A stretch of 64,000 bases of DNA from positions 33,123 through 97,122 of IMG/VR virus record IMGVR_UViG_3300045988_085724; one strand, 5' to 3'. Shown here in pieces: positions 6,701-52,793 of the stretch. The notes beneath the pieces were generated by a model. It did no database searches. It worked only from the letters and a program-made list of their open reading frames with translations, and was not told where the DNA came from. The translations under genes were made by a program, and so were the position numbers. The stretch's first letter is position 1. Every line of letters begins with the position of its first letter. Source of the DNA: a virus.

Positions 6701-8438
6701 GAATTCGTATATCACCTATCCATATTACGTCACTTCTTGTACCGTCGTTCTTATACAATACTATGCCGTATCGGTATACTTCACCACGTTTAAGAGATTT
6801 GATACAACTACTTGTAATAGCATCATTATGAGTCACCTTATCTGGACGTGGAAACCCACAATCAGAAATAATATCATACGCATTCGGTAGAGGTACATTT
6901 TCTTCTTGGTCTTGAGGTATTTTGGGCTTGATATCAAAAACAGGTACAAATCTATCATCGGACAAATCGTACTGTAGATAATACGAATTATTTGTATCTA
7001 TCGCCTCATCGTCATCAATCTAAAGTAACTATAACCTCCATGAGATATAAACACCGCTACCTCCAATATAATTATTATAATCAAACATGGCGTTACTGTA
7101 CTGATTATCAAAATTATGATTTACATCGGCATATGGGTTTGAATAATCAGCATTGTTGAACATCTTATCGCTTATAAAAGCCTAAACTGCTTTATCACCA
7201 TTGTCAACCTAGTCAGGAGATTTAGACTCTGGTTTGTTATATGTATTTACATCTAGATACGGAATATTATACTTATTACCGCTAACCGGAGTAAACTATA
7301 TAGCCCAGAACTTTTTAAGATCTTCTCTATCTAATTGAAATATAGTATCATCCTTTACATTTCCAGCGAATAAATAGCCTTGATTTTGTTCAAGTAATTT
7401 AGGTATAATGTCCTGTCCATGTATCTAAGCGAACTCTTCAACGGATATAGTCTGTAAAGTCTTACGCCCGTTATCTATAACACTAATGTTTGTGCCTGTA
7501 AACTCACCGTCATATATCAGATCAATCTAAGCATTCTAATTAGGTTTTATATATTGTATTCTATATACCTATAGCCTATCGAATTGATCTATCTTCTCAT
7601 CAACTGCTATTCCTAACTATAAACCTATTGACGTAACTGTATCTTCAGCACAGCCAACTTCAGTATCACGAGAAGGATTTATGACTTGATATTTACGACT
7701 TAATGGTGCTAATTTACTAGTTACTCCATATTTCTTATAGAATCTATAAGTATATTGTACCTATGAAGTTTTAAGTTGTCCTCCTACGATTGCCTTATAT
7801 GTAATAGCATGTTTTGGGAAATACCTATTTTGACTAATTAAATCTATATCAATTTCTCCATCTGTTTTATGGGTTGTTTCATCTATTTTATACAGACTTT
7901 TAATATAATCAGTATCCTTTACATTGATCATCATTATCTTATGCTCGCCGTCTGCAATATATAGATTTACTACTTTGTCAGTTTCATACTGTAATACTGC
8001 CGAAACATTTCGCAAGTCAACTGCATCTTCTACTTTTTCTCGAATTTTTATTTTGCACAAGAATGCCCATCTGTATCTTGGTAATTCATCAGAAGCCTCT
8101 ACTTTATACAAATATATGTAATTATTATGTAGCTTAATTAAGATATTAGTGTCTCCTGACGTAATTATTTTTATTATCCGCTGAGTTTTATCGTCGTCGA
8201 ATTTAGGTACAATCTAAGTCGTATAAGTAATGTCTTCATTTAACGCTTTAACTGGAGTCATTACTCCGTATTTTCCATATGCAGCGATATCATTGTAGCT
8301 ATTTATTTTTGACGTACCGTACGGCCGCAAATTAACAGCATATATGTACTGGTTATTTTTAATAGTGTCATACGCAGAATCAGTATTCATACCACCAGTA
8401 AAAGTATTTATAAACGTATTATTCTGTTCAGTAGCCAT
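3729..8438 (-). CDS. giant tail/structural protein (1569 codons, TAG-recoded)
   Basis: Runs from ATG 8438 to TAA 3729-3731. Seven track pieces (8214..8501 down to 3729..4214) share one frame. I checked 6966-7340 codon by codon and found 5 TAG and no TAA/TGA. Confidence 0.75.
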
Positions 8439-24192: not shown

Positions 24193-26679
24193 TTAACGCT
24201 CTCCTACCGTTTTATTCCGCAAAGCGGTCTTAGCTTTAAGTTGTTCTCTTTCCATAGCAGCTTTATCTTTTTGCGCTTGAAGTTGCGATTCATGTTTCAT
24301 CTTATCTTTCTCAAGCTGTATTTTAGCATCTTCGATCTCTTTCTTCTGTTTAGATTCGTAGCGCTTAGAGTACGCATCTTCACGTATCTTCATTTGTGCA
24401 GTAGCATCTTTAGCTATTTCCATAGGATCTGGTATACCATTCTGATTAGCATCTTTATCTTCAGTTCCGCGATATGCAGATATCTCAGCTACAGTAATCT
24501 TAGTGGCATTGTCTTGATCTATCTTATATCTATCAAGATCCATTTGAGCTTCTTGAAGCATGAGCTCTTGTTGTTTAGCTTCATTCTGCATCTGTTGAAG
24601 CTGTTGCTGTGCTTGTGCTTCAGCTTGTTGCTGTTGTTGTGCTTGTTCTTCTTGACGTTTTTGCATGGCTGCAAGTTTCTGTTTAATGATATTAAAGTTA
24701 TCATTAGTGAGTATTTCAGCTGCTTCAAGTAGACTAGCACCATTCTGCATAGCAGGTTGTATAAGCTGTTGGAGCTTCTGTATGTTCTCAAGATCTTTAG
24801 AAGTATCGCTTACGAATACATCCATATCTTCATAGTAGAATTTGTCAGCTATATCGAGAAATGCACGTTCGCCATTGTCAAATATGTACGATAATTTCTT
24901 TTTACCAGTCTATTGCCAAGCACCTTTAGCTGTATTCAAAAGCATATTTAATACATGACGTTTACATTGAGCATGCGCCCAGAATAAAGGCTCTGTGATA
25001 TGTGAAGATTGTACAACAGAACGCTCAACATTACCAACAAGTTCTGAAGAACTGATAGCACCTTGTCGTTGTTCTGTAATACCAGATATAGTTCCAGCAA
25101 GTTGTTCAATCTTATCCATCAACTGAATATATTCAGATATAACATTAGACATTGTAAGATCTAATGCTGTAATCTGATTAAATGAAGCAGGCTTTCCGCC
25201 TTCACGTCCAGGAACATTCCAGCCTTCTTCATATGGATTTATGAAGTTAACACCAACACTAGAAAGATAATGCATCCAACGTTCTGGTGTAATGTTCATA
25301 GACTTAGGTATCTGCGTAATATCCATGTTGATAACTTTACCTTTGTCACGAGCGATAGCCAATTCAAGTCTATACCATAATACAATATACATATACTGTA
25401 ATGGTTTAAGAATACTTACAAGTGATCTAGGTTTGCTATTAGTATTACTATATACACAACCACAATATGGCAGCTTTTGACTATTAGGATTATCAATACT
25501 TACATGTTGATACTCAATAGGCTATATTCCAAAATACAAATCATTTCCTGCACGATATCCTTCCCATACTTCTACAATCCAGTCTGGTTCCACAGATAAT
25601 TCGTTGCCTATCTTTTTATACGACTCATCGGCAATTTGTACCTGAGGAGTGCCTGTCTCATCCATGACTGTTACGTAAAATATCTTTTTAAAAGACTTCC
25701 AGCAACAATGCCACACATTTATACAGTATCTACTTTTCTGATCGAATTCTGGATTATCGTATATATGCAATTGTATTCCTCCGCCTGTATCTACAGGATC
25801 GCCTTCTCGCATATCACCCATTGGTTTTCCAGTGAGCATTTCATTGAGTTTATTTAGATCTTTTTCATCTAATTTATTATAATACCTATCATACACTTCT
25901 GCTACGGGCAGTCTCATCTTACGGCAACACCATGAACCATCTTCAATAAATTCTAGATCGGGACTTTTGTCATATGAAAAATATAACGGATTAACACGTT
26001 CCATATATGGCTCATCATTCTAAACACCTATATAGTATATCTCATTACCGGAGATAAGTGCATCTTTCCATCCTTTTATAAATTCATTGTCTAGATTAAG
26101 CTTTTCTCTTAAGTAGACTAGCGTATGATACGCTGTATTTTCAACAACATCTTTATACGTACTATCCATATATTTAGCAATTTGTTCAGGAGGCATTATT
26201 TCGCCATTTTGTAATTGCTGTTGAAATTGCTATTGTTGTTCGGGATCCATTTTGGCCATTATTGCGGACATCATATATTGGATCAGCATATCTTTTTCCT
26301 TATCCATTAAATCAGACGCTGCTTCCTAAGATGTACGCACTACTCTAAAGTTCATGGGTCTCTTTGTTTCCTCACCAATGAGTAGGTCAATCTTAGGGCG
26401 TATGATATTAAAATCCTAAGGTGTTGCTGGGAATCCATCGTCTACTTTAAATGGGTTTGTTATACGTTTAAAATCTTTTTCGTCGAAAATACTATTATAT
26501 AGATTATAATAAGTCTGCAGCTCCCCGAATTGTGTATTCTATCTTCCGCCGGATACAATATTACCTTCTCCGATAATATAATTCACACAACTGTGTTGCC
26601 AATCCTCATTCTTCTTTGATAGAGGTAACTTCTGTTGCGGAAATGTTGCATTGTATAAATTATCTTCTATTCTAACCAT
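24193..26679 (-). CDS. portal protein (828 codons, TAG-recoded)
   Basis: ATG 26679 lies 2 nt after the TerL TAA; the stop is TAA 24193-24195. Track ORFs 25522..26004, 24910..25392 and 24193..24825 share one frame, with at least 7 TAG. It has a Q/E-rich coiled-coil C-terminus. Size and position match a portal. Confidence 0.75.
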
Positions 26680-26681
26680 CG

Positions 26682-28739
26682 TTAAAAACTAAATATCGGT
26701 ATATCATCTTGTACGCTATTGTCCTAGAACCACTGTGTTCCGAACAATGGCAATTCAAAGAGTTCAACCTATTTATTCTATTCTTGTGATTTGCTAACCT
26801 TCACCTAGTACAACTCTTCTCGATATATCATAACCATGCATAATGCTATAACACGGTCTACGTTCTTAACGCCATCATTTTCTATAAGTTCTTCTATTAA
26901 AGGTTCGCTATATACTCTCTCTACGTTAGGATGCCCAGGTTCGTATTCTTCAAGTAACCATTCTAGAATAAGACCTTCTCCATATGCTCTAATCTATTTA
27001 GTCATATGACATCCTTTACGTCTTTGTACCTTACTGTCCTTAAAGACCTCAGAAATAATCTTATCGGGCTAATCTGCGAGTAAGTAATCACAGTGTTTGT
27101 TTGTGAAATAAGGATATATACCCTTACGTTCATTCTCAAATAATAATCTAGCATTATAGAACACTAATAGTTTTCTGACGTTCTCATAATACTCTTCTGC
27201 TGTATCAGGTCTACCTGAATATTCTGCTACTATTACATCATTCCAAGCTTCTCCAGCTTTTACACGTTTGAATATGAATACTGATCCTAATGAATTCGTA
27301 AATGAATCGTCGTGGTCGTAGGGATCACACCCTCCGATATACAATCCGAATGGCGGATCTTTTATAGGATATTCCCATATTACTATAGATCCATGTGGTT
27401 TATCTCCTTTCTTAAGTGGGTATTCAGTAATATCTCCAGACTTCTTTTCTGTAGCTATTATCTAACCGTTACCATCCCAATTGAGATCTACTATATGTTT
27501 CATATTACGTAACTTAGTGTTTGTACGTATACGTGTTAATTGATCCATTAGAAGTTTTCTTGGAAATATATTCTTACCTAATTCAAGTACAGCCTCTCTT
27601 GGCTTAATAGGACGTTCTGATATAAATCTATCTATGGACTATTGTGAAGCTCCTCCATCTTTAATCTTATTACGCTACTCTATTAGATTCTCAATAGCTT
27701 TCTCACGAAGACTATTTCCATCTTTATCCATATAGATATAATTTCCATCTTTGTCAAAAGATTCTAGATTACTCCATGAAGGAACAAAGAATCCACAATT
27801 AGTTTGCTCAGCATTATCATCCCATATGTTAGGGAATGCCAGTACATTATATGCTTCAGGTTTATAGAACAGTTCCTTTAGACCAGTAAATGAAGCGCCC
27901 TCTGTACCACCTGTACCATAAGCTATCATTAATCCAAAAGCTACACCGTCGTCAGTTTCTACAGACGGCTGTTCTATTCGCCACGCATCTAACAAGCCAG
28001 GGAACTTACCTCCCTCCTCCCATAGTACTAATTTACCACGAGTACCACGAATACGTTCTGGGTCGTTCTTAAGTGTTATTCCACTAATAGATGACATATA
28101 ACCTTGTTCAGTCTATTTACCGAATTCATCAGTTACCTTATAACCAGCTACGCGTTCCATACGAGTAGATACAAGTCTTTGTTTAGCCCATGCTGTATTC
28201 TTGTCTATAAAATCCATGATTTGCCAAGCTTTTGTTAGTAAACCGTCTCCTATTAAGAACTTTTGTTCTGATGCTACAGCAAAGTTTTTAGATCCAGGTA
28301 TCAATTCATAATTACGTACTAGCATTGATGCTCCTTTAAAGGAATACCCACGCTATCTGCTCTTAATCACCGACATGTGTTTACCTTGATCTTCCGCTTC
28401 TTCTATAGCGTTGTAGTAATAGTAATCATAGTCCCAAAATCTAGGAAAGTCTAATATACGTTCACGTCTTGTACGTACATTTCCATTTCTATCAGTATAC
28501 TTAACTTCTTCTAGTTTCATAATAGGACTATAGTTTAGATAGAAATAATGATATCCAGTAATATAATCACCATCTGGCGCTATATAACCATTTAAACATC
28601 TATCTGTTTCTTGCTCCCAATATGTATTATAATCAGTAGTCCCTCTGGGAGCTAAAGTATAGCATTTATGCTTCTTAAAAAACTCAGCAGCAGGACTGAA
28701 TTTTATAGAATTATAAATGCGTTTATTGAAATCTACCAT
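26682..28739 (-). CDS. terL: terminase large subunit (685 codons, TAG-recoded)
   Basis: Runs from ATG 28739 to TAA 26682-26684. Four track pieces share one frame. TAGs are at 28353, 28113, 27675, 27639, 27462, 27069 and 26724. I checked 27345-27675 and 26682-26760 codon by codon. ..RGTRGKLVLWEEGG.. (ATPase) and ..GGCDPYDHDDS.. (nuclease) are TerL-like. Confidence 0.8.
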
Positions 28740-34479: not shown

Positions 34480-34508
34480 GTTAATTTAATTTTTAGTTAG
34501 TATATATA

Positions 34509-34544
34509 CAAATAAAGGGGTAGCCCTATGTAGGACACCCCCTT
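34509..34544 (-). terminator. terminator after dUTPase
   Basis: The minus strand has AAGGGG..CCCCTT stem arms followed by TATTTG. Confidence 0.45.
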
Positions 34545-34564
34545 CCTCGGATTTTATACCGGTA

Positions 34565-35095
34565 TTATTTATCCGACTCAGAACCGTTTGTTGGTTCAGC
34601 CGCTTGATCTGGTGCAGTCTCAGTATTCTGAGATCCTGTATCCGCGCTAATATCTTTCTTATCTGAAGAACCATAGCCATCTTCTCCACGCTCAGACTCT
34701 GAAAGATTATCTGCAAAAACAGGTTCAATTTCAGGATAAGGCATGATGACCAACTGCGCAATCCTATCACCAATACTATATACAGCAGGAATAGAATCAC
34801 CACTAGTGTTCTTAAACTTTAGAAGGATTTCTCCACGATAGCCTGAATCTATTACACCCACAGCGTTAGTAAGAGTAAGAGATTTCTTATATACGCTAGA
34901 TCGTTGGAACAAAAGACCAACATGACCAACGGGAATTTCGGCAGCAATACCTGTATGATATACTAAAACAAACTGACCACACTCGTTAACCTCACTTGTA
35001 ATATTTACACACGTAAGATCCAAACCTGCATCTGTAGAATGTGCTTTACTAGGCAATACTGCTTTATCTGATAATTTCTTAAATTTAACTTCCAT
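34565..35095 (-). CDS. dut: dUTP diphosphatase
   Basis: Carries dUTPase motifs AGLDL, GVIDSGYRGEI, RIAQLVI and a C-terminal ERGEDGYGSS. It is TAG-free and ends in TAA. Confidence 0.85.
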   Translation of the reverse strand: MEVKFKKLSDKAVLPSKAHSTDAGLDLTCVNITSEVNECGQFVLVYHTGIAAEIPVGHVGLLFQRSSVYKKSLTLTNAVGVIDSGYRGEILLKFKNTSGDSIPAVYSIGDRIAQLVIMPYPEIEPVFADNLSESERGEDGYGSSDKKDISADTGSQNTETAPDQAAEPTNGSESDK

Positions 35096-35096
35096 A

Positions 35097-35720
35097 TTAT
35101 TGTATGTTTATAAAATCTATAAATAAATAATCTTTAGAACCCGATTGTTTATGTTCTTCTATGTTCTGATGGTTCTTCAATTTAGCATATAATATAGGAC
35201 ATAGGTCGTCAATTATACGTAAGAACTTATTATCATTCTTAAATAAAGATGTAGTACTAGAGTACTTATCAACCAGTGTAGGTATGTCTTTATTCTTAAA
35301 CTCGTACAATACTTTCCAATCGTACTTTCTATTGCCTCCGAAAAACTTTATGTTCTTATATTGCGTCTCGTAAGTTTCACAGTCGTAAATAAATTCGTGC
35401 TCCTTATTTACAGCTAAAGGATCATGTTTGGCAAAAGAATCTTCTTCGCATAATACTCGTACATAGCAATCTCCTTTCTTGTCGAGGAATTTAAGCATTT
35501 CCCGTAATACCCTCCATGAATTATCGTATGCTATTCTACCATGACGAATTTCTTCACACATCATATCGTTATACCACAATCGTATATCAAATACTCTTGC
35601 TCCAAGTTCATATTGTTTTTCGTAATCTATTGATTGACATCTAGCGGTAAATTTAAGTAACTTACCCCACCATGTTTTAGGTGTAAGATATGTCAATGAG
35701 TTATGTGTTCCTATATTCAT
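35097..35720 (-). CDS. PI-PLC X-domain-like phosphodiesterase
   Basis: N-terminal IGTHNS, then ARVFDIRLWY..IRHG. This is the same order as the GTHDS / FDIR / HHG catalytic motifs of bacterial PI-PLC. Confidence 0.5.
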   Translation of the reverse strand: MNIGTHNSLTYLTPKTWWGKLLKFTARCQSIDYEKQYELGARVFDIRLWYNDMMCEEIRHGRIAYDNSWRVLREMLKFLDKKGDCYVRVLCEEDSFAKHDPLAVNKEHEFIYDCETYETQYKNIKFFGGNRKYDWKVLYEFKNKDIPTLVDKYSSTTSLFKNDNKFLRIIDDLCPILYAKLKNHQNIEEHKQSGSKDYLFIDFINIQ

Positions 35721-35738
35721 ATGTCTATATTTAATTAG

Positions 35739-36000
35739 TAGCCCATGTAGGTATCGATCCCACTCCTTCGGGGTTCTTCCAACATCATGTCACCATGACC
35801 GTAAAACGTTGTTGGCTGGACTTTGTCTTCACCATGCTTTCGTTTAGGTGTCTCGTATAAAGTCTCTACACTCGGTATTTAAACCTAGCTCGGCGTTATC
35901 TACTAGAGACGTTCGCCGACTTAGCGAGATGTTCATCTAAATGTTTCCAAATAGAGCTCCACCAAAGAGCCCGACGTGCTAGCCAGTACACAAATGGGCA
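35739..36000 (-). tRNA. amber-suppressor tRNA(CUA), Gln-like body, interrupted by a group I intron
   Basis: Exon 1 (36000-35966) is TGCCCAT-TT-GTGT-ACTGGCTA-GCAC-G-TCGGG-CTCT. Exon 2 (35775-35739) is AAC-CCCGA-AGGA-GTGGG-ATCGATA-CCTAC-ATGGGCT-A. Joined, they form a 72-nt cloverleaf with anticodon loop CTCTAAC (anticodon CTA). Confidence 0.8.
35776..35965 (-). ncRNA. group I intron (190 nt, no ORF) between anticodon positions 35 and 36
   Basis: P1 pairs exon GCUCU with intron GGAGC, with a U.G at the splice site. P10 pairs GGU, adjacent to the internal guide sequence, with ACC of exon 2. The intron ends in G. It has R-like GUAGAGACUUUA and S-like GAAGACAAAGUCC elements (P7 GACUUU/AAAGUC) and GAAA- and GUGA-capped hairpins. 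Confidence 0.75.
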
Positions 36001-36216
36001 ATAATGTTGACATTTGTATCCCTCTGCCAACGAAGGGTGTAATTTATGCATCATTACAAAGCCGGACCTCATTCGTGTCGTTGTCTTCGCAGGACAATTA
36101 ACCGATCCTGTGCAATCGGTTTGATTATTTCGTAATCAACGCATATTTTATAAACTATCGTTTACTAAATATGAAAGTAATATAACCTCCTTTCTTAAGG
36201 GAGATTAATATTTGGG

Positions 36217-36435
36217 TTATACAAATAAAGATATGACTATTATTTGTAAAGCTTGGCCGATTACTCCGCCAATTTCACCAGCGGCTATGTCTAACCAATC
36301 AAACTTACCGCCATTTTGTTTATCTTTAAATTCCATACCGAATGCCAATCCTGTACTAAACAGTATTGTGCCAATGAAGGCTGCTGGTATAGAATATAAA
36401 AGATGTTTTGGTCTGTTACTTTCTTTTAACCACAT
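36217..36435 (-). CDS. small two-TM membrane protein (72 aa)
   Basis: Intact ORF with two hydrophobic helices. Confidence 0.5.
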   Translation of the reverse strand: MWLKESNRPKHLLYSIPAAFIGTILFSTGLAFGMEFKDKQNGGKFDWLDIAAGEIGGVIGQALQIIVISLFV

Positions 36436-36500
36436 ATTATTTGTATATTTATGTTTAAATAAAAAATTTACATTATGAAAATTCTCATCATTATGGATAG

Positions 36501-36570
36501 AACCTTATGCCGGAATCGAACCGACCTAGTAGCTTTGTATCGCCTGACTCCACCAGTTGTCTTATAAGGT
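36501..36570 (-). tRNA. tRNA-like gene with an unresolvable anticodon arm
   Basis: It has a perfect 7-bp acceptor (ACCTTAT/ATAAGGT), a D arm (GAC..GTC) and a T arm (GTCGG-TTCGATT-CCGGC). I can pair no 5-bp/7-nt anticodon arm in GGCGATACAAAGCTACTAG. Confidence 0.35.
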
Positions 36571-36607
36571 TACATTTGTTAATATGAGCTCAATTATAAG
36601 TATGGAG

Positions 36608-36689
36608 CGCAGAGCCCAGGATTTGAACCTTGATTCTTCTGATAATCACCAAAGGTTAATCAGATGTTTTACCTTATAAACTACTCCGC
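36608..36689 (-). tRNA. tRNA-like gene with a 27-nt anticodon arm (10 extra nt)
   Basis: Acceptor is GCGGAGT/GCTCTGC, D arm GTTT-ATAAGGTA-AAAC, T arm CAAGG-TTCAAAT-CCTGG. The anticodon position is TCTGAT-N15-ATCAGA. Confidence 0.35.
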
Positions 36690-36717
36690 GAGGAATTTCT
36701 TAACTGTGTTCATGTCG

Positions 36718-36792
36718 TGGGCGCTGATGGATTCGAACCACCGACCACCTACTTGTAAGGCAGGTGCTCTAAACCAGCTGAGCTAAGCGCCC
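36718..36792 (-). tRNA. tRNA-Val(UAC)
   Basis: GGGCGCTTAGCTCAGCTGGTTTAGAGCACCTGCCTTACAAGTAGGTGGTCGGTGGTTCGAATCCATCAGCGCCCA forms a canonical cloverleaf with anticodon loop CTTACAA. Confidence 0.85.
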
Positions 36793-36841
36793 AAAGTACA
36801 GTGTTTGAGGTACACCGTAAAACCTAGTTTTAGTAACCAAC

Positions 36842-37144
36842 TTATTTCTTTCGTGTGATCCAATCCCAGAAACGAGCAAAGATGTTCTTTTTCTTAGGAG
36901 TCTCTTTCTCTGTCTCATTAGCAATAGGAGCAAATGCCTTTGTAAGTGCTTCTGTAACAAGAGCACTAATTCTTTCAGTTGAAAGAATTGCCTCACTTAC
37001 TGCATGACCAACAGTAGCGTTGTATTCAAATTTAGTGATAGGTACACCAGCATTAACTTTCTCTTTTGCTATTGCTACAAATACATCAACATCATCGATG
37101 CATTCTGTAAGATCTACTACAAATGTATATTTATTCTTTTTCAT
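36842..37144 (-). CDS. hypothetical protein (100 aa)
   Basis: Runs from ATG 37144 (MKKNKYTFVV..) to TAA 36842. The track start at 37174 is a non-ATG extension. Confidence 0.55.
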   Translation of the reverse strand: MKKNKYTFVVDLTECIDDVDVFVAIAKEKVNAGVPITKFEYNATVGHAVSEAILSTERISALVTEALTKAFAPIANETEKETPKKKNIFARFWDWITRKK

Positions 37145-37164
37145 AATACCGATATTAATTATTT

Positions 37165-37548
37165 TTACTCGCATTTACAACAGTCACAGCTACATGATCC
37201 TTTGCAGATAGAATAAGCTGCGTCAATCATTGCATCATTCTTTTTTGCCTCTTCTCGTTTGATATAAGCAAGAACGTTCTCCTTCCAGTCTTTGTTCTTT
37301 ATTACAATCACAGGATAAATAATCCAATCTTCATCGTAGAACGTTACGATAATATCACCTTTATCTGCCTTGAGTACCACATCTTTTCCGTTCTTTTTAT
37401 AACGAATCTCCATGTCCTCTGGTGCAATATAACATTCATTGACGCTGCATCTAAACGGAGCAATTGTTTCGACTGTCTGCTTATTAAAATCTATGAATAC
37501 CGGACGTTTTACGTATTTACCGGTTCCAATAAAACTAAGTGTCTTCAT
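37165..37548 (-). CDS. hypothetical protein with a Cys-rich C-terminus (CKGSCSCDCCKCE)
   Basis: Intact 127-aa ORF ending in TAA. Confidence 0.6.
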   Translation of the reverse strand: MKTLSFIGTGKYVKRPVFIDFNKQTVETIAPFRCSVNECYIAPEDMEIRYKKNGKDVVLKADKGDIIVTFYDEDWIIYPVIVIKNKDWKENVLAYIKREEAKKNDAMIDAAYSICKGSCSCDCCKCE

Positions 37549-51983: not shown

Positions 51984-52494
51984 AAGCTCGATTCATAAAT
52001 TGAATTCAGATCATAGAACCTTTGAGTCACATGATTACGTGGAGGGGGAAGTTAACGCTTGGGATCTGGCATTATGCTTCAGTTGCGGAACACCACGAGA
52101 CATGAATTGACATGTCATACAGAGCCTAGAGCCAGTTATGAATTCAGATGCCGAACTTACGGTAGTTTAAATATAAGTCACATGATCAAAAGAATTGAAT
52201 CTTAGCGAGTCATTGGAGCCTCGACAAGGTTAGCATTGGTTAACTACGTCGACTGAGATGTAAATCAAAAATGTTGAAAGCGACATGCAAGAGTCTTAGA
52301 ACCAGTCATATCACCGCTTGTATTAAGCCAAATAAAGCCGTTTTAAAGCGTTATTAATCGATTGTGAAGTAGCTAATCACATGAGACCAAATAACGTCTT
52401 AAAACGGCTTAAAACAGGCTTAAATCAAATGTTCTATCTGATCAATAGAACATTTACAAAGAATAATAGCATGTATGAGGTAATTTACGAAGAC

Positions 52495-52539
52495 GAGGGT
52501 TCGAATCCCTCATGGTCCACGTCTACATAGACATTTTTT
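52495..52539 (+). other. tRNA 3'-half-like module + terminator
   Basis: GAGGG-TTCGAAT-CCCTC-ATGGTCC-A, then GTCT-ACAT-AGAC-ATTTTTT. No matching 5' acceptor strand was found within about 130 nt. Confidence 0.45.
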
Positions 52540-52559
52540 CATAATAAGGAAAACTATCG

Positions 52560-52592
52560 CCAATGTGGTTCGTGAGAATAGCATTGGTTTTT
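52560..52592 (+). terminator. hairpin with conserved loop GGTTCGTGAGAATA + T-run (copy 1)
   Basis: CCAATG-TGGTTCGTGAGAATAG-CATTGG-TTTTT. Confidence 0.5.
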
Positions 52593-52735
52593 AACAAGGG
52601 CCATACTGGATTTGATTCGTAAAGGAAGTAAATACGTTAAGTGCTACTATATAAATTCAACTGGCAACTATAATGTTGTAGATTACACACATGTAGCATG
52701 AGTGTAATCTGAGTGTTTCCTACTAAAGTGGAGGA

Positions 52736-52793
52736 AGATGTAATACGATAGGCGTACATTGTGGTTCGAGTCCACTACATCTACGAAATTTAT
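52736..52793 (+). other. mini tRNA-like element (acceptor + T arm + one short hairpin)
   Basis: AGATGTA..TACG-ATAGG-CGTA..GTGG-TTCGAGT-CCAC-TACATCT-A. Confidence 0.4.

What the first reader, a model, noticed from the sequence alone, without database searches (positions are those of the whole stretch)
35739..36000. Amber-suppressor tRNA(CUA) whose anticodon is split by a 190-nt group I intron
Two half-tRNA sequences lie 190 nt apart. Together they form a perfect 72-nt cloverleaf only if 35965-35776 is removed. The junction then creates the loop C-U-C-U|A-A-C, i.e. anticodon CUA.

The intervening sequence has group I hallmarks:
- **P1:** exon GCUCU pairs with intron GGAGC, with the U.G wobble exactly at the 5' splice site.
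- **P10:** the contiguous guide extension GGU pairs with the first exon-2 bases ACC.
- **3' end:** a terminal G.
- **Core elements:** R/S-like core elements forming P7 (GACUUU/AAAGUC).
- **Peripheral hairpins:** capped by GAAA and GUGA.

The suppressor needed to read the late genes therefore exists only after self-splicing. That adds a possible RNA-level timer or checkpoint to code switching. tRNA finders tuned for bacterial genes may miss it because the anticodon is never contiguous in the DNA.

The T-loop is also unusual (A54 and A60: ATCGATA), and position 1:72 is a U.U mismatch.
Basis: seen in the sequence. Interest (0 to 1): 0.95.

Follow-up and report, generated by a model that had tools for sequence, protein, structure and literature searches.

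The report
Intron-split amber-suppressor tRNA in crAss-like phage
A gut crAss-like phage that reads the stop codon TAG as an amino acid in its late genes carries its only detectable TAG-reading tRNA as two halves split by a 190-base self-splicing (group I) intron, which hides the gene from standard tRNA finders and explains at least one published "missing suppressor tRNA".

Summary

- **The gene.** On the minus strand, 36000-35966 and 35775-35739 are the two halves of a tRNA(CUA). A 190-nt group I intron (35965-35776) splits them between anticodon bases U35 and A36.
- **Detection.** Default ARAGORN and the Rfam tRNA model miss the gene. ARAGORN calls the spliced sequence tRNA(cta) at default settings.
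- **Intron features.** All the group I hallmarks are present: P1 with a U.G pair at the 5' splice site, P10, a terminal G, P3-P9, and a bulged-A/G-C site in P7. The Rfam RF00028 score is 26.9 bits, below the 50-bit cutoff, but a homologous tRNA(CUA) intron scores 58.2 bits.
- **Relatives.** I found 11 more distinct intron-split tRNA(CUA) genes, all split at CUCU|AA. Across 10 of the 12 genes, 94% of predicted pairs are standard pairs, against 36-45% when partners are slid. All five anticodon-stem pairs, which span the intron, show compensatory changes.
- **Splice junction.** An intron-free tRNA(CUA) in another viral contig carries exactly the predicted ligated junction.
- **Need for the tRNA.** The phage needs an amber suppressor: TerL has 11 in-frame TAGs and portal has 8.
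- **Missed in the literature.** The published genome OFMT01000073 is tabulated as TAG-recoded with no suppressor tRNA, yet it carries this split gene.

The close relative cr131_1 has an intron-free tRNA(CUA) plus a free-standing GIY-YIG endonuclease at the same site, so the intron is dispensable and probably a mobile element. This is a new variant of a known kind.

The parts
35739..36000 (-). Whole split gene (262-nt pre-tRNA): tRNA(CUA) with intron
   Evidence: Sequence. ARAGORN -io -ps90 calls tRNA(cta) with a 190-nt intron at 35/36. The spliced product is called at default settings.
35966..36000 (-). Exon 1: acceptor 5' strand, D arm, anticodon stem 5' strand, and loop bases C32 U33 C34 U35
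   Evidence: The acceptor, D and anticodon stems covary with exon 2 across 10 homologs.
35776..35965 (-). 190-nt ORF-less group I intron (compact tRNA-intron type)
   Evidence: RF00028 matches the full model at 26.9 bits, E 5.8e-5, over window 35977-35798, which overlaps exon 1. A non-CUA family HMM hits at E 7e-33. Covariation.
35739..35775 (-). Exon 2: A36 A37 C38, anticodon stem 3' strand, variable loop, T arm (loop AUCGAUA), acceptor 3' strand, discriminator A
35954..35972 (-). P1 hairpin: exon GGGCUCU (35972-35966) pairs with the internal guide GGAGCUC (35960-35954), with the U35.G wobble at the 5' splice site. The loop UUGGU (35965-35961) carries the P10 guide GGU (35963-35961).
   Evidence: Sequence. 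The guide tracks the anticodon across the family: CUCU/GGAG, CUGU/GCAG, CUU/GAG. G-C changes to A-U in the L037 P1 extension.
35772..35774 (-). P10 target: exon-2 bases +2 to +4 (ACC) pair with intron GGU
   Evidence: One of the two counted P10 pairs shows a GC-to-UA compensatory change.
35938..35953 (-). P2 hairpin with GAAA tetraloop (35947-35944); two U.U mismatches in this copy
   Evidence: 5 of 6 pairs (CUA set) and 6 of 6 pairs (29-sequence set) show compensatory changes. A GAAA L2 co-occurs with a receptor-like P8.
35925..35929 (-). P3 5' strand (UCUCG), pairs with 35855-35851
   Evidence: 4 of 5 pairs have compensatory changes.
35871..35919 (-). P4-P5-P6 domain: P4 UCGGCG/CGCCGA, P5 GUCU/AGAU, P6 CU.GG/CC.AG
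   Evidence: P4 is invariant, partly because the search pattern fixed it. P5 has 2 of 4 and P6 has 3 of 4 pairs with compensatory changes.
35859..35866 (-). J6/7-P7 5' strand: G, bulged A, then GACUUU (the R element), including the presumed guanosine-binding G-C pair
   Evidence: Sequence. Invariant in all 29 relatives. Pairs with 35824-35818.
35851..35855 (-). P3 3' strand (CGAGA)
35830..35850 (-). P8 hairpin CACC...GGUG with an internal CCUAAA/CAUGG receptor-like motif and a GAAA loop
   Evidence: 3 of 4 pairs have compensatory changes. The receptor-like motif co-occurs with a GAAA L2.
35818..35824 (-). P7 3' strand AAAGUC plus C (the S element)
35779..35815 (-). P9 domain: CCAACA/UGUUGG stem enclosing the CAUG-GUGA-CAUG hairpin (P9b, 35797-35786)
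   Evidence: P9 is 88% paired; P9b is 100% paired with 2 of 4 pairs compensatory.
35776..35776 (-). Terminal guanosine (omega G) at the 3' splice site
   Evidence: Sequence. Every family member kept after applying the U(-1)/terminal-G boundary rule ends in G by construction; 14 ARAGORN frames that fitted no such boundary were dropped.
26682..28739 (-). Context (client gene): terminase large subunit with 11 in-frame TAG codons
   Evidence: One end-to-end match to the PHROG TerL profile when TAG is read as sense. Gln is the commonest residue opposite TAG in homologs.
24193..26679 (-). Context (client gene): portal protein with 8 in-frame TAG codons

Best explanation
This is the phage's amber-suppressor tRNA gene, anticodon CUA and most likely charged with glutamine. 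A 190-nt ORF-less group I intron of the compact tRNA-anticodon-loop type interrupts it between anticodon bases U35 and A36.

**Inferred mechanism (standard group I chemistry).**
1. The 262-nt transcript folds into P1-P10.
2. A free guanosine bound in P7 attacks after U35, which sits in a U.G wobble with the internal guide GGAG.
3. The P10 pairing (GGU with ACC) brings up exon 2.
4. The 3'-OH of U35 attacks after the terminal G at 35776.
5. The exons ligate into a 72-nt tRNA with the loop CUCUAAC.

That tRNA reads the UAG codons that fill the late genes, such as TerL and portal.

**Shown here:** the split gene, the fold with covariation, the exact junction in an intron-free allele, the TAG dependence of late genes, and the failure of standard finders.

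**Inferred:** actual self-splicing, Gln charging, and this being the only suppressor in the genome.

**What the intron is.** It is most likely a mobile or formerly mobile selfish element tolerated in the tRNA, not a device needed for code switching.
For: **Sequence anatomy:**

**Group I identity:**
- RF00028 matches the full model at 26.9 bits, E 5.8e-5.
- The homologous tRNA(CUA) intron in L071 scores 58.2 bits, above the 50-bit gathering score.
- An HMM built without any CUA member hits 35961-35777 at E 7e-33.

**Relatives:** 12 distinct intron-split tRNA(CUA) genes counting the window, all split at CUCU|AA.

**Covariation:**
- CUA set: 94.3% paired against 36-45% when slid; 36 of 72 pairs compensatory. 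This includes 5 of 5 anticodon-stem, 5 of 7 acceptor and 4 of 5 T-stem pairs.
- 29-sequence set: 92.4% against 35-43%. P2 6/6, P3 4/5, P6 3/4, P8 3/4 pairs compensatory.
- The internal guide follows the anticodon: CUCU/GGAG, CUGU/GCAG, CUU/GAG.

**Junction:** viral contig L002 holds an uninterrupted tRNA(CUA) whose 17-nt anticodon stem-loop TCGGGCTCTAACCCCGA equals the predicted ligated junction.

**Need for the tRNA:**
- TAG-containing reading frames tile the minus strand almost continuously from 36 to 28748. TerL has 11 TAGs and portal has 8, and each matches its profile in one stretch.
- Q is the commonest residue opposite TAG in homologs.
- No other tRNA(CUA) is in the window, nor in the part of cr131_1 that the window lacks.

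**The intron is dispensable or mobile:**
- cr131_1 has an intron-free tRNA(CUA) plus a GIY-YIG endonuclease gene in the same slot, between 92-97% identical flanks.
- HNH ORFs sit in long family members.
Against: - No RNA data: splicing, ligated junction reads and charging are all untested.
- The window copy scores below the Rfam gathering threshold (26.9 against 50 bits) and is not reported in a standard whole-window scan.
- The MFE of the pre-tRNA is not unusual (z = -1.5).
- P2 of this copy has two U.U mismatches. Position 1:72 is U.U and the T-loop has A54, so the tRNA is atypical.
- P4, P7 and the P1 core never vary, partly because the search patterns fixed them, so they add no covariation evidence.
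- Relatedness inflates shuffle statistics.
- Global similarity to the phage's own tRNA-Gln(UUG) is not higher than to its tRNA-Val or tRNA-Met. Gln identity therefore rests on TAG/Q column statistics and on published proteomics for other crAss-like phages (PMC9523058).
- About 33 kb of the genome is unseen.
Confidence: 0.9

Rival explanations
1. Splicing of the suppressor pre-tRNA is slow or regulated, so the intron acts as an RNA-level timer that delays UAG decoding, and hence late-gene translation, until the right stage.
For: - The only tRNA(CUA) seen must be spliced to work.
- Late genes are full of TAG.
- The intron-bearing cassette is kept at the same site in three diverged crAss-like lineages. 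It is more conserved (81-89%) than its flanks (64-78%).
Against: - cr131_1 has 92-97% identical flanks and the same TAG-rich TerL, and it manages with an intron-free tRNA(CUA) at this site.
- Within Yutin's delta_13 group, one genome has a detectable suppressor, presumably uninterrupted, while a sister genome has the split one.
- The same intron family sits in ordinary sense tRNAs (Asn, Leu, Arg), where no timing role is apparent.
- No regulatory element was found.
- From my own knowledge, bacterial tRNA group I introns splice constitutively.
Confidence: 0.1
2. The intron persists because it protects the tRNA locus from a homing endonuclease. Relatives carry a free-standing GIY-YIG endonuclease next to an intron-free tRNA(CUA). 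If that enzyme cuts the tRNA gene near the insertion site, the intron would make this phage immune in mixed infections. The two cassettes would then be competing selfish elements. This is compatible with the main explanation; it concerns why the intron is kept.
For: - Sharp cassette swap: window 35737-36042 (intron-tRNA) is replaced in cr131_1 by about 940 bp holding tRNA(CUA) plus a GIY-YIG gene, with 96.7% and 91.7% identical flanks.
- L002 also has an intron-free tRNA, followed by sequence that aligns through cr131_1's tRNA and the start of its endonuclease gene at 78% identity.
- From my own knowledge there are precedents: T4 SegB in the tRNA cluster (see also PMC13096335), and the free-standing F-CphI that cuts the psbA intron insertion site in cyanophage.
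Against: - The endonuclease's target is unknown.
- No co-infection data exist.
- The exons of the two cassettes differ well beyond the insertion site (52 of 72 identical), so immunity could come from sequence divergence alone.
Confidence: 0.25
3. The locus is a dead gene: a tRNA disabled by an intron that no longer splices. Suppression would come from a host tRNA or an unseen phage tRNA.
For: The tRNA is atypical (U1.U72, A54/A60). P2 has two U.U mismatches. The Rfam score is sub-threshold.
Against: - Twelve distinct sequences keep both the tRNA and the ribozyme helices through compensatory changes.
- The U.G pair, the terminal G and the P7 core are intact.
- The cassette is more conserved than neighbouring genes.
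- Essential genes need UAG decoding.
- No second suppressor is found in the window or in the relative.
Confidence: 0.03

Closest known systems
Group I introns in bacterial and plastid tRNA anticodon loops: cyanobacterial/chloroplast tRNA-Leu(UAA), Azoarcus tRNA-Ile(CAU), alpha-proteobacterial tRNA-Arg(CCU), cyanobacterial tRNA-fMet (subgroup IC3)
   Same: - A compact ORF-less ribozyme sits in the anticodon loop.
- P1 is built from anticodon-loop bases, with a U.G pair at the splice site.
- The anticodon stem flanks P1/P10.
- The P2 GAAA loop is paired with a receptor-like P8.
- The GUAGAGACU / GAAGA.A.AGUC core is shared.
- Sequence homology to tRNA-Leu(UAA), Asn and Arg introns is strong: an HMM without CUA members hits at E 7e-33.
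   Different: - The host is a phage, not a cell or organelle.
- The host gene is a nonsense suppressor, tRNA(CUA).
- The insertion is between positions 35 and 36. From my own knowledge, the classical sites are 34/35 (Leu) and 36/37 (Ile, Arg).
- The length is 190 nt. From my own knowledge, the Azoarcus intron is about 205 nt.
- The specific subfamily pattern had no exact match in 185,579 reference bacterial and archaeal genomes.
Uninterrupted suppressor tRNA(CUA) genes of TAG-recoded crAss-like phages (code 15), e.g. cr131_1 KNV60_gt02, and 'Sup CTA' in Yutin et al. 2021 Supplementary Data 1
   Same: Same genomic slot, same anticodon, same U1.U72 mismatch, and the same role of decoding in-frame TAG in late genes.
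   Different: The gene here is split by an intron, so it is invisible to default tRNA finders. Exon sequences differ (52 of 72 identical). There is no adjacent GIY-YIG endonuclease gene.
'Enigmatic' introns in Lak megaphage tRNAs (Devoto et al. 2019, PMC6784885)
   Same: Phage-encoded tRNA genes interrupted in the anticodon loop. Those authors noted that introns in phage tRNAs had not been reported before.
   Different: The one Lak intron sequence I read (tRNA-Tyr GTA, Table S6) is about 93 nt. The authors tested the introns against Rfam and still call them enigmatic. At that length it is too short to hold a group I core.
Group I introns of phage protein-coding genes (T4 td, nrdB, nrdD; Twort; crAss-like MCP, PolB, primase)
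   Same: [quoted passage not shown] They are dense in delta and zeta crAss-like phages (PMC7886860).
   Different: Those sit in protein-coding genes. The 2014 review PMC3984707 states that all phage introns known then were in protein-coding genes despite many phage tRNA genes. This one is in a tRNA.
Free-standing homing endonucleases next to tRNA or intron-target genes (T4 SegB; cyanophage F-CphI 'collaborative homing')
   Same: A free-standing GIY-YIG endonuclease gene sits directly beside the tRNA(CUA) gene in the sister phage. The intron and the endonuclease gene are alternative occupants of one locus.
   Different: No cleavage data exist. Here the endonuclease gene and the intron are in different genomes.

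Membership tests
Group I intron (Rfam RF00028) | P1 helix between the 5' exon end and an internal guide sequence, with a U.G wobble at the 5' splice site | tested here: met
   GGGCUCU pairs with GGAGCUC, with U35.G. The guide changes with the anticodon across the family.
Group I intron (Rfam RF00028) | Terminal guanosine at the 3' splice site, and P10 with the 3' exon | tested here: met
   G at 35776. GGU pairs with ACC at exon-2 bases +2 to +4. One counted P10 pair covaries, GC to UA.
Group I intron (Rfam RF00028) | Conserved core: P3-P8 pseudoknot with P7 (R/S elements, bulged A, G-C guanosine site) and the P4-P6 domain | tested here: met
   All helices are present. Of the 29-sequence alignment, 92.4% of cells are paired against 35-43% when slid. 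P3, P6 and P8 covary. P4 and P7 are invariant.
Group I intron (Rfam RF00028) | Score at or above Rfam's gathering threshold (50 bits) | tested here: not met
   The window copy scores 26.9 bits (E 5.8e-5 in a local scan). The homologous tRNA(CUA) intron in L071 scores 58.2 bits; other relatives score 27-45 bits. The model under-scores this compact subfamily.
Group I intron (Rfam RF00028) | Guanosine-dependent self-splicing | not testable with these tools
   Needs in vitro transcription with GTP and Mg2+, or RNA-seq junction reads.
Compact tRNA anticodon-loop group I introns (IC3 type) | Inserted in a tRNA anticodon loop, with the anticodon stem closing the intron | tested here: met
   All 5 anticodon-stem pairs span the intron and covary.
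Compact tRNA anticodon-loop group I introns (IC3 type) | No P5abc extension, no ORF; P2 and P9 present; an L2 tetraloop with a P8 receptor | tested here: met
   190 nt with no ORF. L2 is GAAA and P8 carries CCUAAA/CAUGG. GAAA and the receptor co-occur in 10 sequences, both are absent in 17, and 2 are discordant. This is a sequence-level inference; the receptor sequence is recalled from my own knowledge.
Compact tRNA anticodon-loop group I introns (IC3 type) | Homology to tRNA-Leu(UAA)-type introns | tested here: met
   An HMM from Asn, Leu and Arg introns only hits the window at E 7e-33.
Compact tRNA anticodon-loop group I introns (IC3 type) | Insertion at one of the classical sites (34/35 or 36/37) | tested here: not met
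   The site is 35/36 in all 12 tRNA(CUA) genes and in the tRNA-Asn(GUU) members. The classical sites are from my own knowledge.
Compact tRNA anticodon-loop group I introns (IC3 type) | Formal subgroup assignment against reference IC3 structures | not tested
Phage amber-suppressor tRNA (code 15) | Valid cloverleaf with anticodon CUA | tested here: met
   ARAGORN at default settings calls tRNA(cta) on the spliced sequence.
Phage amber-suppressor tRNA (code 15) | The genome has in-frame TAG in essential, mostly late, genes | tested here: met
   149 in-frame TAGs lie in the 35 open frames of at least 200 codons, 26 of which hold at least one. TerL and portal each match their profile in one stretch.
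Phage amber-suppressor tRNA (code 15) | TAG corresponds to glutamine | tested here: inconclusive
   Q is the commonest residue opposite TAG in TerL homologs (44, then E 27 and K 18). The tRNA is not globally closer to tRNA-Gln(UUG) than to other tRNAs. Proteomic proof exists for other crAss-like phages (PMC9523058).
Mobile group I intron (intron plus homing endonuclease) | Intron-encoded endonuclease ORF | tested here: not met
   The 190-nt intron has no ORF. Longer family members in tRNA-Leu and tRNA-Arg genes encode HNH proteins.
Mobile group I intron (intron plus homing endonuclease) | Presence/absence polymorphism at one site among close relatives | tested here: met
   Window compared with cr131_1. 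L002 is an empty-site allele with an identical junction. OFMT01000073 has no detected suppressor whereas OJAW01000043 is tabulated with Sup CTA; whether the latter's gene is intron-free was not checked.
Protein-spliced (bulge-helix-bulge) tRNA introns of archaea and eukaryotes | Canonical 37/38 position, a bulge-helix-bulge motif, and a splicing endonuclease in the host | not tested
   The position is 35/36. From my own knowledge, Bacteroidota hosts lack the endonuclease. The group I fold accounts for the whole intron, so I set this aside.

The most novel reading that the evidence does not exclude
Self-splicing of the suppressor pre-tRNA is rate-limiting or conditional, for example on GTP/guanosine or Mg2+ levels or on a phage-made chaperone. 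It would then gate the phage's switch from the standard code to TAG=Gln, making a ribozyme the checkpoint for late-gene translation. The intron-free/endonuclease cassette of sister phages would be an alternative solution.
Probability: 0.1. Interest if true: 0.9.

Novelty: new variant of a known kind. Interest (0 to 1): 0.66.

Why it matters
**1. It gives a concrete answer to a recurring puzzle.** Many TAG-recoded phage genomes show no suppressor tRNA.
- Only 13% of 285 recoded genomes had a detectable tRNA(CUA) in PMC9610469.
- PMC7886860 and PMC12386605 make similar remarks.
- Here one published genome, OFMT01000073, is tabulated as TAG-recoded without a suppressor, yet it carries an intron-split tRNA(CUA).
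- Scanning with a split-tRNA plus group I model should recover more of these.

**2. It overturns an older generalisation.** The 2014 review PMC3984707 stated that phage group I introns are confined to protein-coding genes. In the viral contigs sampled here they also sit in tRNA-Leu, Asn, Tyr, Phe, Arg, Thr, Ile and Met genes.

**3. It adds a ribozyme step to phage code switching.** UAG decoding in this phage depends on RNA catalysis, which is directly testable in vitro.

**4. It shows how such an intron can retarget.** The family moves between anticodon loops by changing one or two guide bases.

**5. It exposes a contested locus.** An intron and a free-standing GIY-YIG endonuclease are alternative occupants of the same suppressor-tRNA site.

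Tried and rejected
- **ARAGORN intron mode at default threshold:** nothing found. It needed -ps90.
- **Whole-window Rfam gathering scan:** no intron and no tRNA at the locus.
- **MFE folding of the pre-tRNA:** z = -1.5, uninformative for a pseudoknotted ribozyme.
- **blastn of the locus and of the intron alone against 50,697 GenBank phage records:** no intron match even at E <= 1.
- **Subfamily pattern in 185,579 reference genomes:** 0 hits.
- **Generic core pattern in cellular genomes:** at least 120 loci, in tRNA-Arg, tRNA-Leu and other tRNA genes, but none with CUA in that capped sample.
- **Global identity of the mature tRNA to the phage's tRNA-Gln(UUG):** does not single out Gln (39/72, against 41-43 for Val and Met).
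- **L003 and L004 matches to the spliced stem-loop:** not tRNAs; chance matches in GC-rich contigs.
- **Lak megaphage 'enigmatic' tRNA introns:** I considered them possible relatives. The one sequence I read is about 93 nt, too short to hold a group I core.
- **ARAGORN's label of six relatives as tRNA-Ser(CGA):** rejected. That split would leave an intron ending in C or U. The U(-1)/terminal-G rule gives CUA.
- **Covariance model:** not built. HMM profiles and explicit pair counts were enough.
- **Literature:** nine full-text searches found no report of a group I intron in a phage suppressor tRNA.
Full report
**1. What the window is**

The window is a crAss-like phage. It is about 91% identical over 12 kb to NC_055902.1, 'uncultured phage cr131_1' (Suoliviridae, the delta group, from rhesus faeces).

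**2. The observation**

On the minus strand:
- 36000-35966 reads UGCCCAUUUGUGUACUGGCUAGCACGUCGGGCUCU.
- 35775-35739 reads AACCCCGAAGGAGUGGGAUCGAUACCUACAUGGGCUA.
- They are separated by 190 nt, 35965-35776.

Joined, they form a 72-nt cloverleaf:
- acceptor stem 7 bp, with U1.U72;
- D stem 4 bp;
- anticodon stem UCGGG/CCCGA;
- loop CUCU|AAC;
- T stem GUGGG/CCUAC.

Detection by standard tools:
- Default ARAGORN and the Rfam tRNA model find four other tRNAs in the window but not this one.
- ARAGORN's intron mode fails at its default threshold. At -ps90 it returns tRNA(cta) with a 190-nt intron at 35/36.
- The spliced sequence passes at default settings.

**3. Anatomy of the intron**

- **P1:** GGGCUCU pairs with GGAGCUC, with U35.G at the 5' splice site. 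The P1 loop is UUGGU.
- **P10:** the GGU of that loop can pair with exon-2 ACC. These are bases +2 to +4.
- **P2:** a GAAA loop.
- **P3:** UCUCG/CGAGA.
- **P4:** UCGGCG/CGCCGA.
- **P5 and P6:** present.
- **J6/7-P7:** G, bulged A, then GACUUU, pairing with AAAGUC-C. These are the R and S elements, including the usual G-C guanosine site.
- **P8:** CACC/GGUG, with an internal CCUAAA/CAUGG motif and a GAAA loop.
- **P9:** CCAACA/UGUUGG, enclosing a CAUG-GUGA-CAUG hairpin.
- **3' end:** a terminal G at 35776.

Rfam RF00028 aligns to this region over its whole length, but at only 26.9 bits (gathering score 50; E 5.8e-5 in a 451-nt scan). MFE folding is uninformative (z -1.5).

**4. Relatives**

*How they were found.*
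- A generic core pattern retrieved at least 120 IMG/VR loci. About half of them lie in tRNA anticodon loops.
- A subfamily pattern retrieved 19 viral and 68 metagenome loci.
- I placed boundaries with the rule that U precedes the 5' splice site and G ends the intron.

*What they are.*
- Counting the window, there are 12 distinct intron-split tRNA(CUA) genes: window, L037, L126, L140, L146, L186, L102, L162, L107, L168, L191 and L071.
- All are split at CUCU|AA.
- The same intron family sits in tRNA-Asn(GUU) at 35/36, and in tRNA-Leu(UAA) and tRNA-Arg(UCU) at 34/35.
- The internal guide follows the anticodon: CUCU/GGAG, CUGU/GCAG, CUU/GAG.

*Homology and group I membership.*
- An HMM built from the Asn, Leu and Arg members only hits window 35961-35777 at E 7e-33, and nowhere else in the window.
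- The L071 tRNA(CUA) intron reaches Rfam's own threshold (58.2 bits).

**5. Covariation**

*Ten distinct pre-tRNA(CUA) sequences, alignment A1, 72 pairs.*
- 94.3% of cells are standard pairs, against 36-45% when the partners are slid.
- 36 pairs show changes on both sides.
- The helices that bridge the intron show this most clearly: anticodon stem 5 of 5, acceptor 5 of 7, T stem 4 of 5.

*Twenty-nine family members, alignment A2.*
- 92.4% paired, against 35-43% when slid.
- Pairs with compensatory changes: P2 6/6, P3 4/5, P6 3/4, P8 3/4.

*Caveats.*
- P4, P7 and the P1 core never vary, partly by construction of the search patterns.
- The sequences are related, so shuffle counts are not probabilities.

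*A tertiary-contact signal.* L2 = GAAA co-occurs with the receptor-like P8: 10 sequences have both, 17 have neither, and 2 are discordant.

**6. The splice junction**

Viral contig L002 carries an uninterrupted tRNA(CUA). Its anticodon stem-loop, TCGGGCTCTAACCCCGA, equals exon-1 end plus exon-2 start of the window. It is an empty-site allele.

**7. Does the phage need this tRNA?**

- Reading TAG as sense tiles the minus strand from 36 to 28748 with long frames.
- TerL (11 TAGs) and portal (8 TAGs) each match their PHROG profile in one end-to-end stretch.
- In a TerL alignment, Q is the commonest residue opposite TAG (44, then E 27 and K 18). At the conserved LLAD-x-PDKI site, 4 of the 5 homologs that do not themselves carry TAG there have Q. 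This agrees with the published proteomics for code 15 in crAss-like phages (PMC9523058).
- The window holds no other tRNA(CUA).
- The part of cr131_1 that corresponds to the unseen ~33 kb holds only tRNA-Leu(UAA).

**8. Locus history**

*Comparison with cr131_1.*
- Window 34500-35736 is 96.7% identical to cr131_1, and window 36043-37300 is 91.7% identical.
- Between these flanks, the 306-bp intron-tRNA cassette is replaced in cr131_1 by about 940 bp.
- That stretch holds an uninterrupted tRNA(CUA), also U1.U72, plus a free-standing GIY-YIG endonuclease gene (Pfam 45 bits).

*More distant lineages.*
- In L192/L199/L037 and in L186/L166/L155, the intron-tRNA sits at the same place, between a small ORF (homologous to the gene cr131_1 annotates as a putative lipoprotein) and dUTPase.
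- There it is more conserved (88.6% and about 81.5%) than its flanks (64-78%).

*Mobile relatives.* Long family members in tRNA-Leu and tRNA-Arg genes encode HNH endonucleases.

*Reading.* The intron is dispensable for code switching and behaves like a mobile element. Whether it also shields the locus from the endonuclease is open.

**9. Literature**

- The 2014 review of bacterial group I introns says all phage introns known then were in protein-coding genes (PMC3984707).
- Devoto et al. 2019 reported 'enigmatic' tRNA introns in Lak megaphages. The one sequence I read is about 93 nt, too short to hold a group I core.
- Yutin et al. 2021, the Borges et al. preprint and later crAss papers do not mention introns in suppressor tRNAs. 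They repeatedly note recoded genomes without a detectable suppressor.
- Yutin's Supplementary Data 1 lists OFMT01000073 (my L186) as 'TAG|q, delta_13, 6 tRNAs', with no Sup entry. Its sister OJAW01000043 has Sup CTA. L186 carries the split tRNA(CUA).
- The intron has no blastn match in 50,697 GenBank phage records.
- The subfamily pattern has no match in 185,579 reference genomes. However, one metagenome member (L142, tRNA-Asn) lies beside 23S and 5S rRNA genes and so is cellular.

**10. Verdict**

The structural claim is right and well supported in silico. Splicing itself, Gln charging and uniqueness in the genome are inferred.

The timer/checkpoint idea is unsupported, and the intron-free sister allele argues against it, but kinetics were not testable.

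This is a new variant of a known kind: a classical tRNA-type group I intron in a new host (a phage), a new gene (a nonsense suppressor that underlies code switching) and a new site (35/36). It has a direct practical consequence for annotating recoded phages.

Noticed in passing
window 36607-36689 (-); L001 about 7560-7645 (-): An 83-nt tRNA-like gene (ARAGORN 'Val aac', Rfam tRNA 36.5 bits). It has a 6-bp anticodon stem and a 16-nt loop containing a mini-hairpin, ACC-UUU-GGU. It appears conserved in cr131_1 with base changes in the stems, where it is unannotated. Its nature is unexplained: an expanded loop, a mini-intron, or a decoy.
   Followed up: partly
window 45353-45459 and 47758-47827 (+): Two RAGATH-1 hammerhead ribozymes above the Rfam gathering score. 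They lie 140 nt and 110 nt upstream of tRNA-Met(CAU) at 45599 and tRNA-Gln(UUG) at 47938. This suggests ribozyme-linked processing of tRNA transcripts.
   Followed up: no
window 52430-52792 (+): ARAGORN calls a tmRNA (flagged '*', tag peptide GNYNVVDYTHVA). No Rfam family reaches gathering score there.
   Followed up: no
L005-L205 (IMG/VR and metagenome contigs): Group I introns interrupt the anticodon loops of many other tRNA genes on predicted viral contigs: Leu(UAA), Asn(GUU), Tyr(GUA), Phe(GAA), Arg(UCU), Thr(UGU), Ile(UAU) and Met(CAU). Lengths run from 171 to about 980 nt, and the long ones encode HNH endonucleases. This contradicts the older statement that phage group I introns occur only in protein-coding genes.
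   Followed up: partly
L001 6084-6863 (-) = cr131_1 gp84; window 35737-36042: A free-standing GIY-YIG endonuclease gene with an intron-free tRNA(CUA) in cr131_1 occupies exactly the slot that holds the intron-containing tRNA(CUA) in the window. The homology boundaries are sharp.
   Followed up: partly
NC_055902.1 17336-20672; NC_055895.1 99353-102714; window 26682-28739: TerL of cr131_1 and cr7_1 matches in two tblastn pieces spread over about 3.3 kb. This implies an insertion of about 1.3 kb (intron or intein). The window's TerL is contiguous.
   Followed up: no
window 35751-35757 (T-loop); L037; L001 6889-6961; L002; L126: The suppressors have unusual T-loops. The window and L037 have AUCGAUA/AUCGAAA (A54, A60). 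cr131_1, L002 and the L126 type have UUUGAUU (U56 instead of C56). Position 1:72 is unpaired in 6 of 10 tRNA(CUA) sequences.
   Followed up: no
L126, L140, L146, L155, L166, L186: ARAGORN labels these split genes tRNA-Ser(cga) because of a 1-nt boundary shift. That shift would leave an intron ending in C or U. Group I rules give anticodon CUA. This is a trap for automated annotation.
   Followed up: yes
L142 3449-3764: A tRNA-Asn(GUU) gene with an intron of this family lies next to 5S and 23S rRNA genes. At least one family member is therefore cellular, although the subfamily pattern found nothing in the reference genomes.
   Followed up: no
L107, L168, L191: Three of the intron-split tRNA(CUA) genes have long variable arms (91-93 nt mature, type II: Ser-, Leu- or Tyr-like). 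Amber suppressors that insert different amino acids may therefore carry the same intron at the same site.
   Followed up: no
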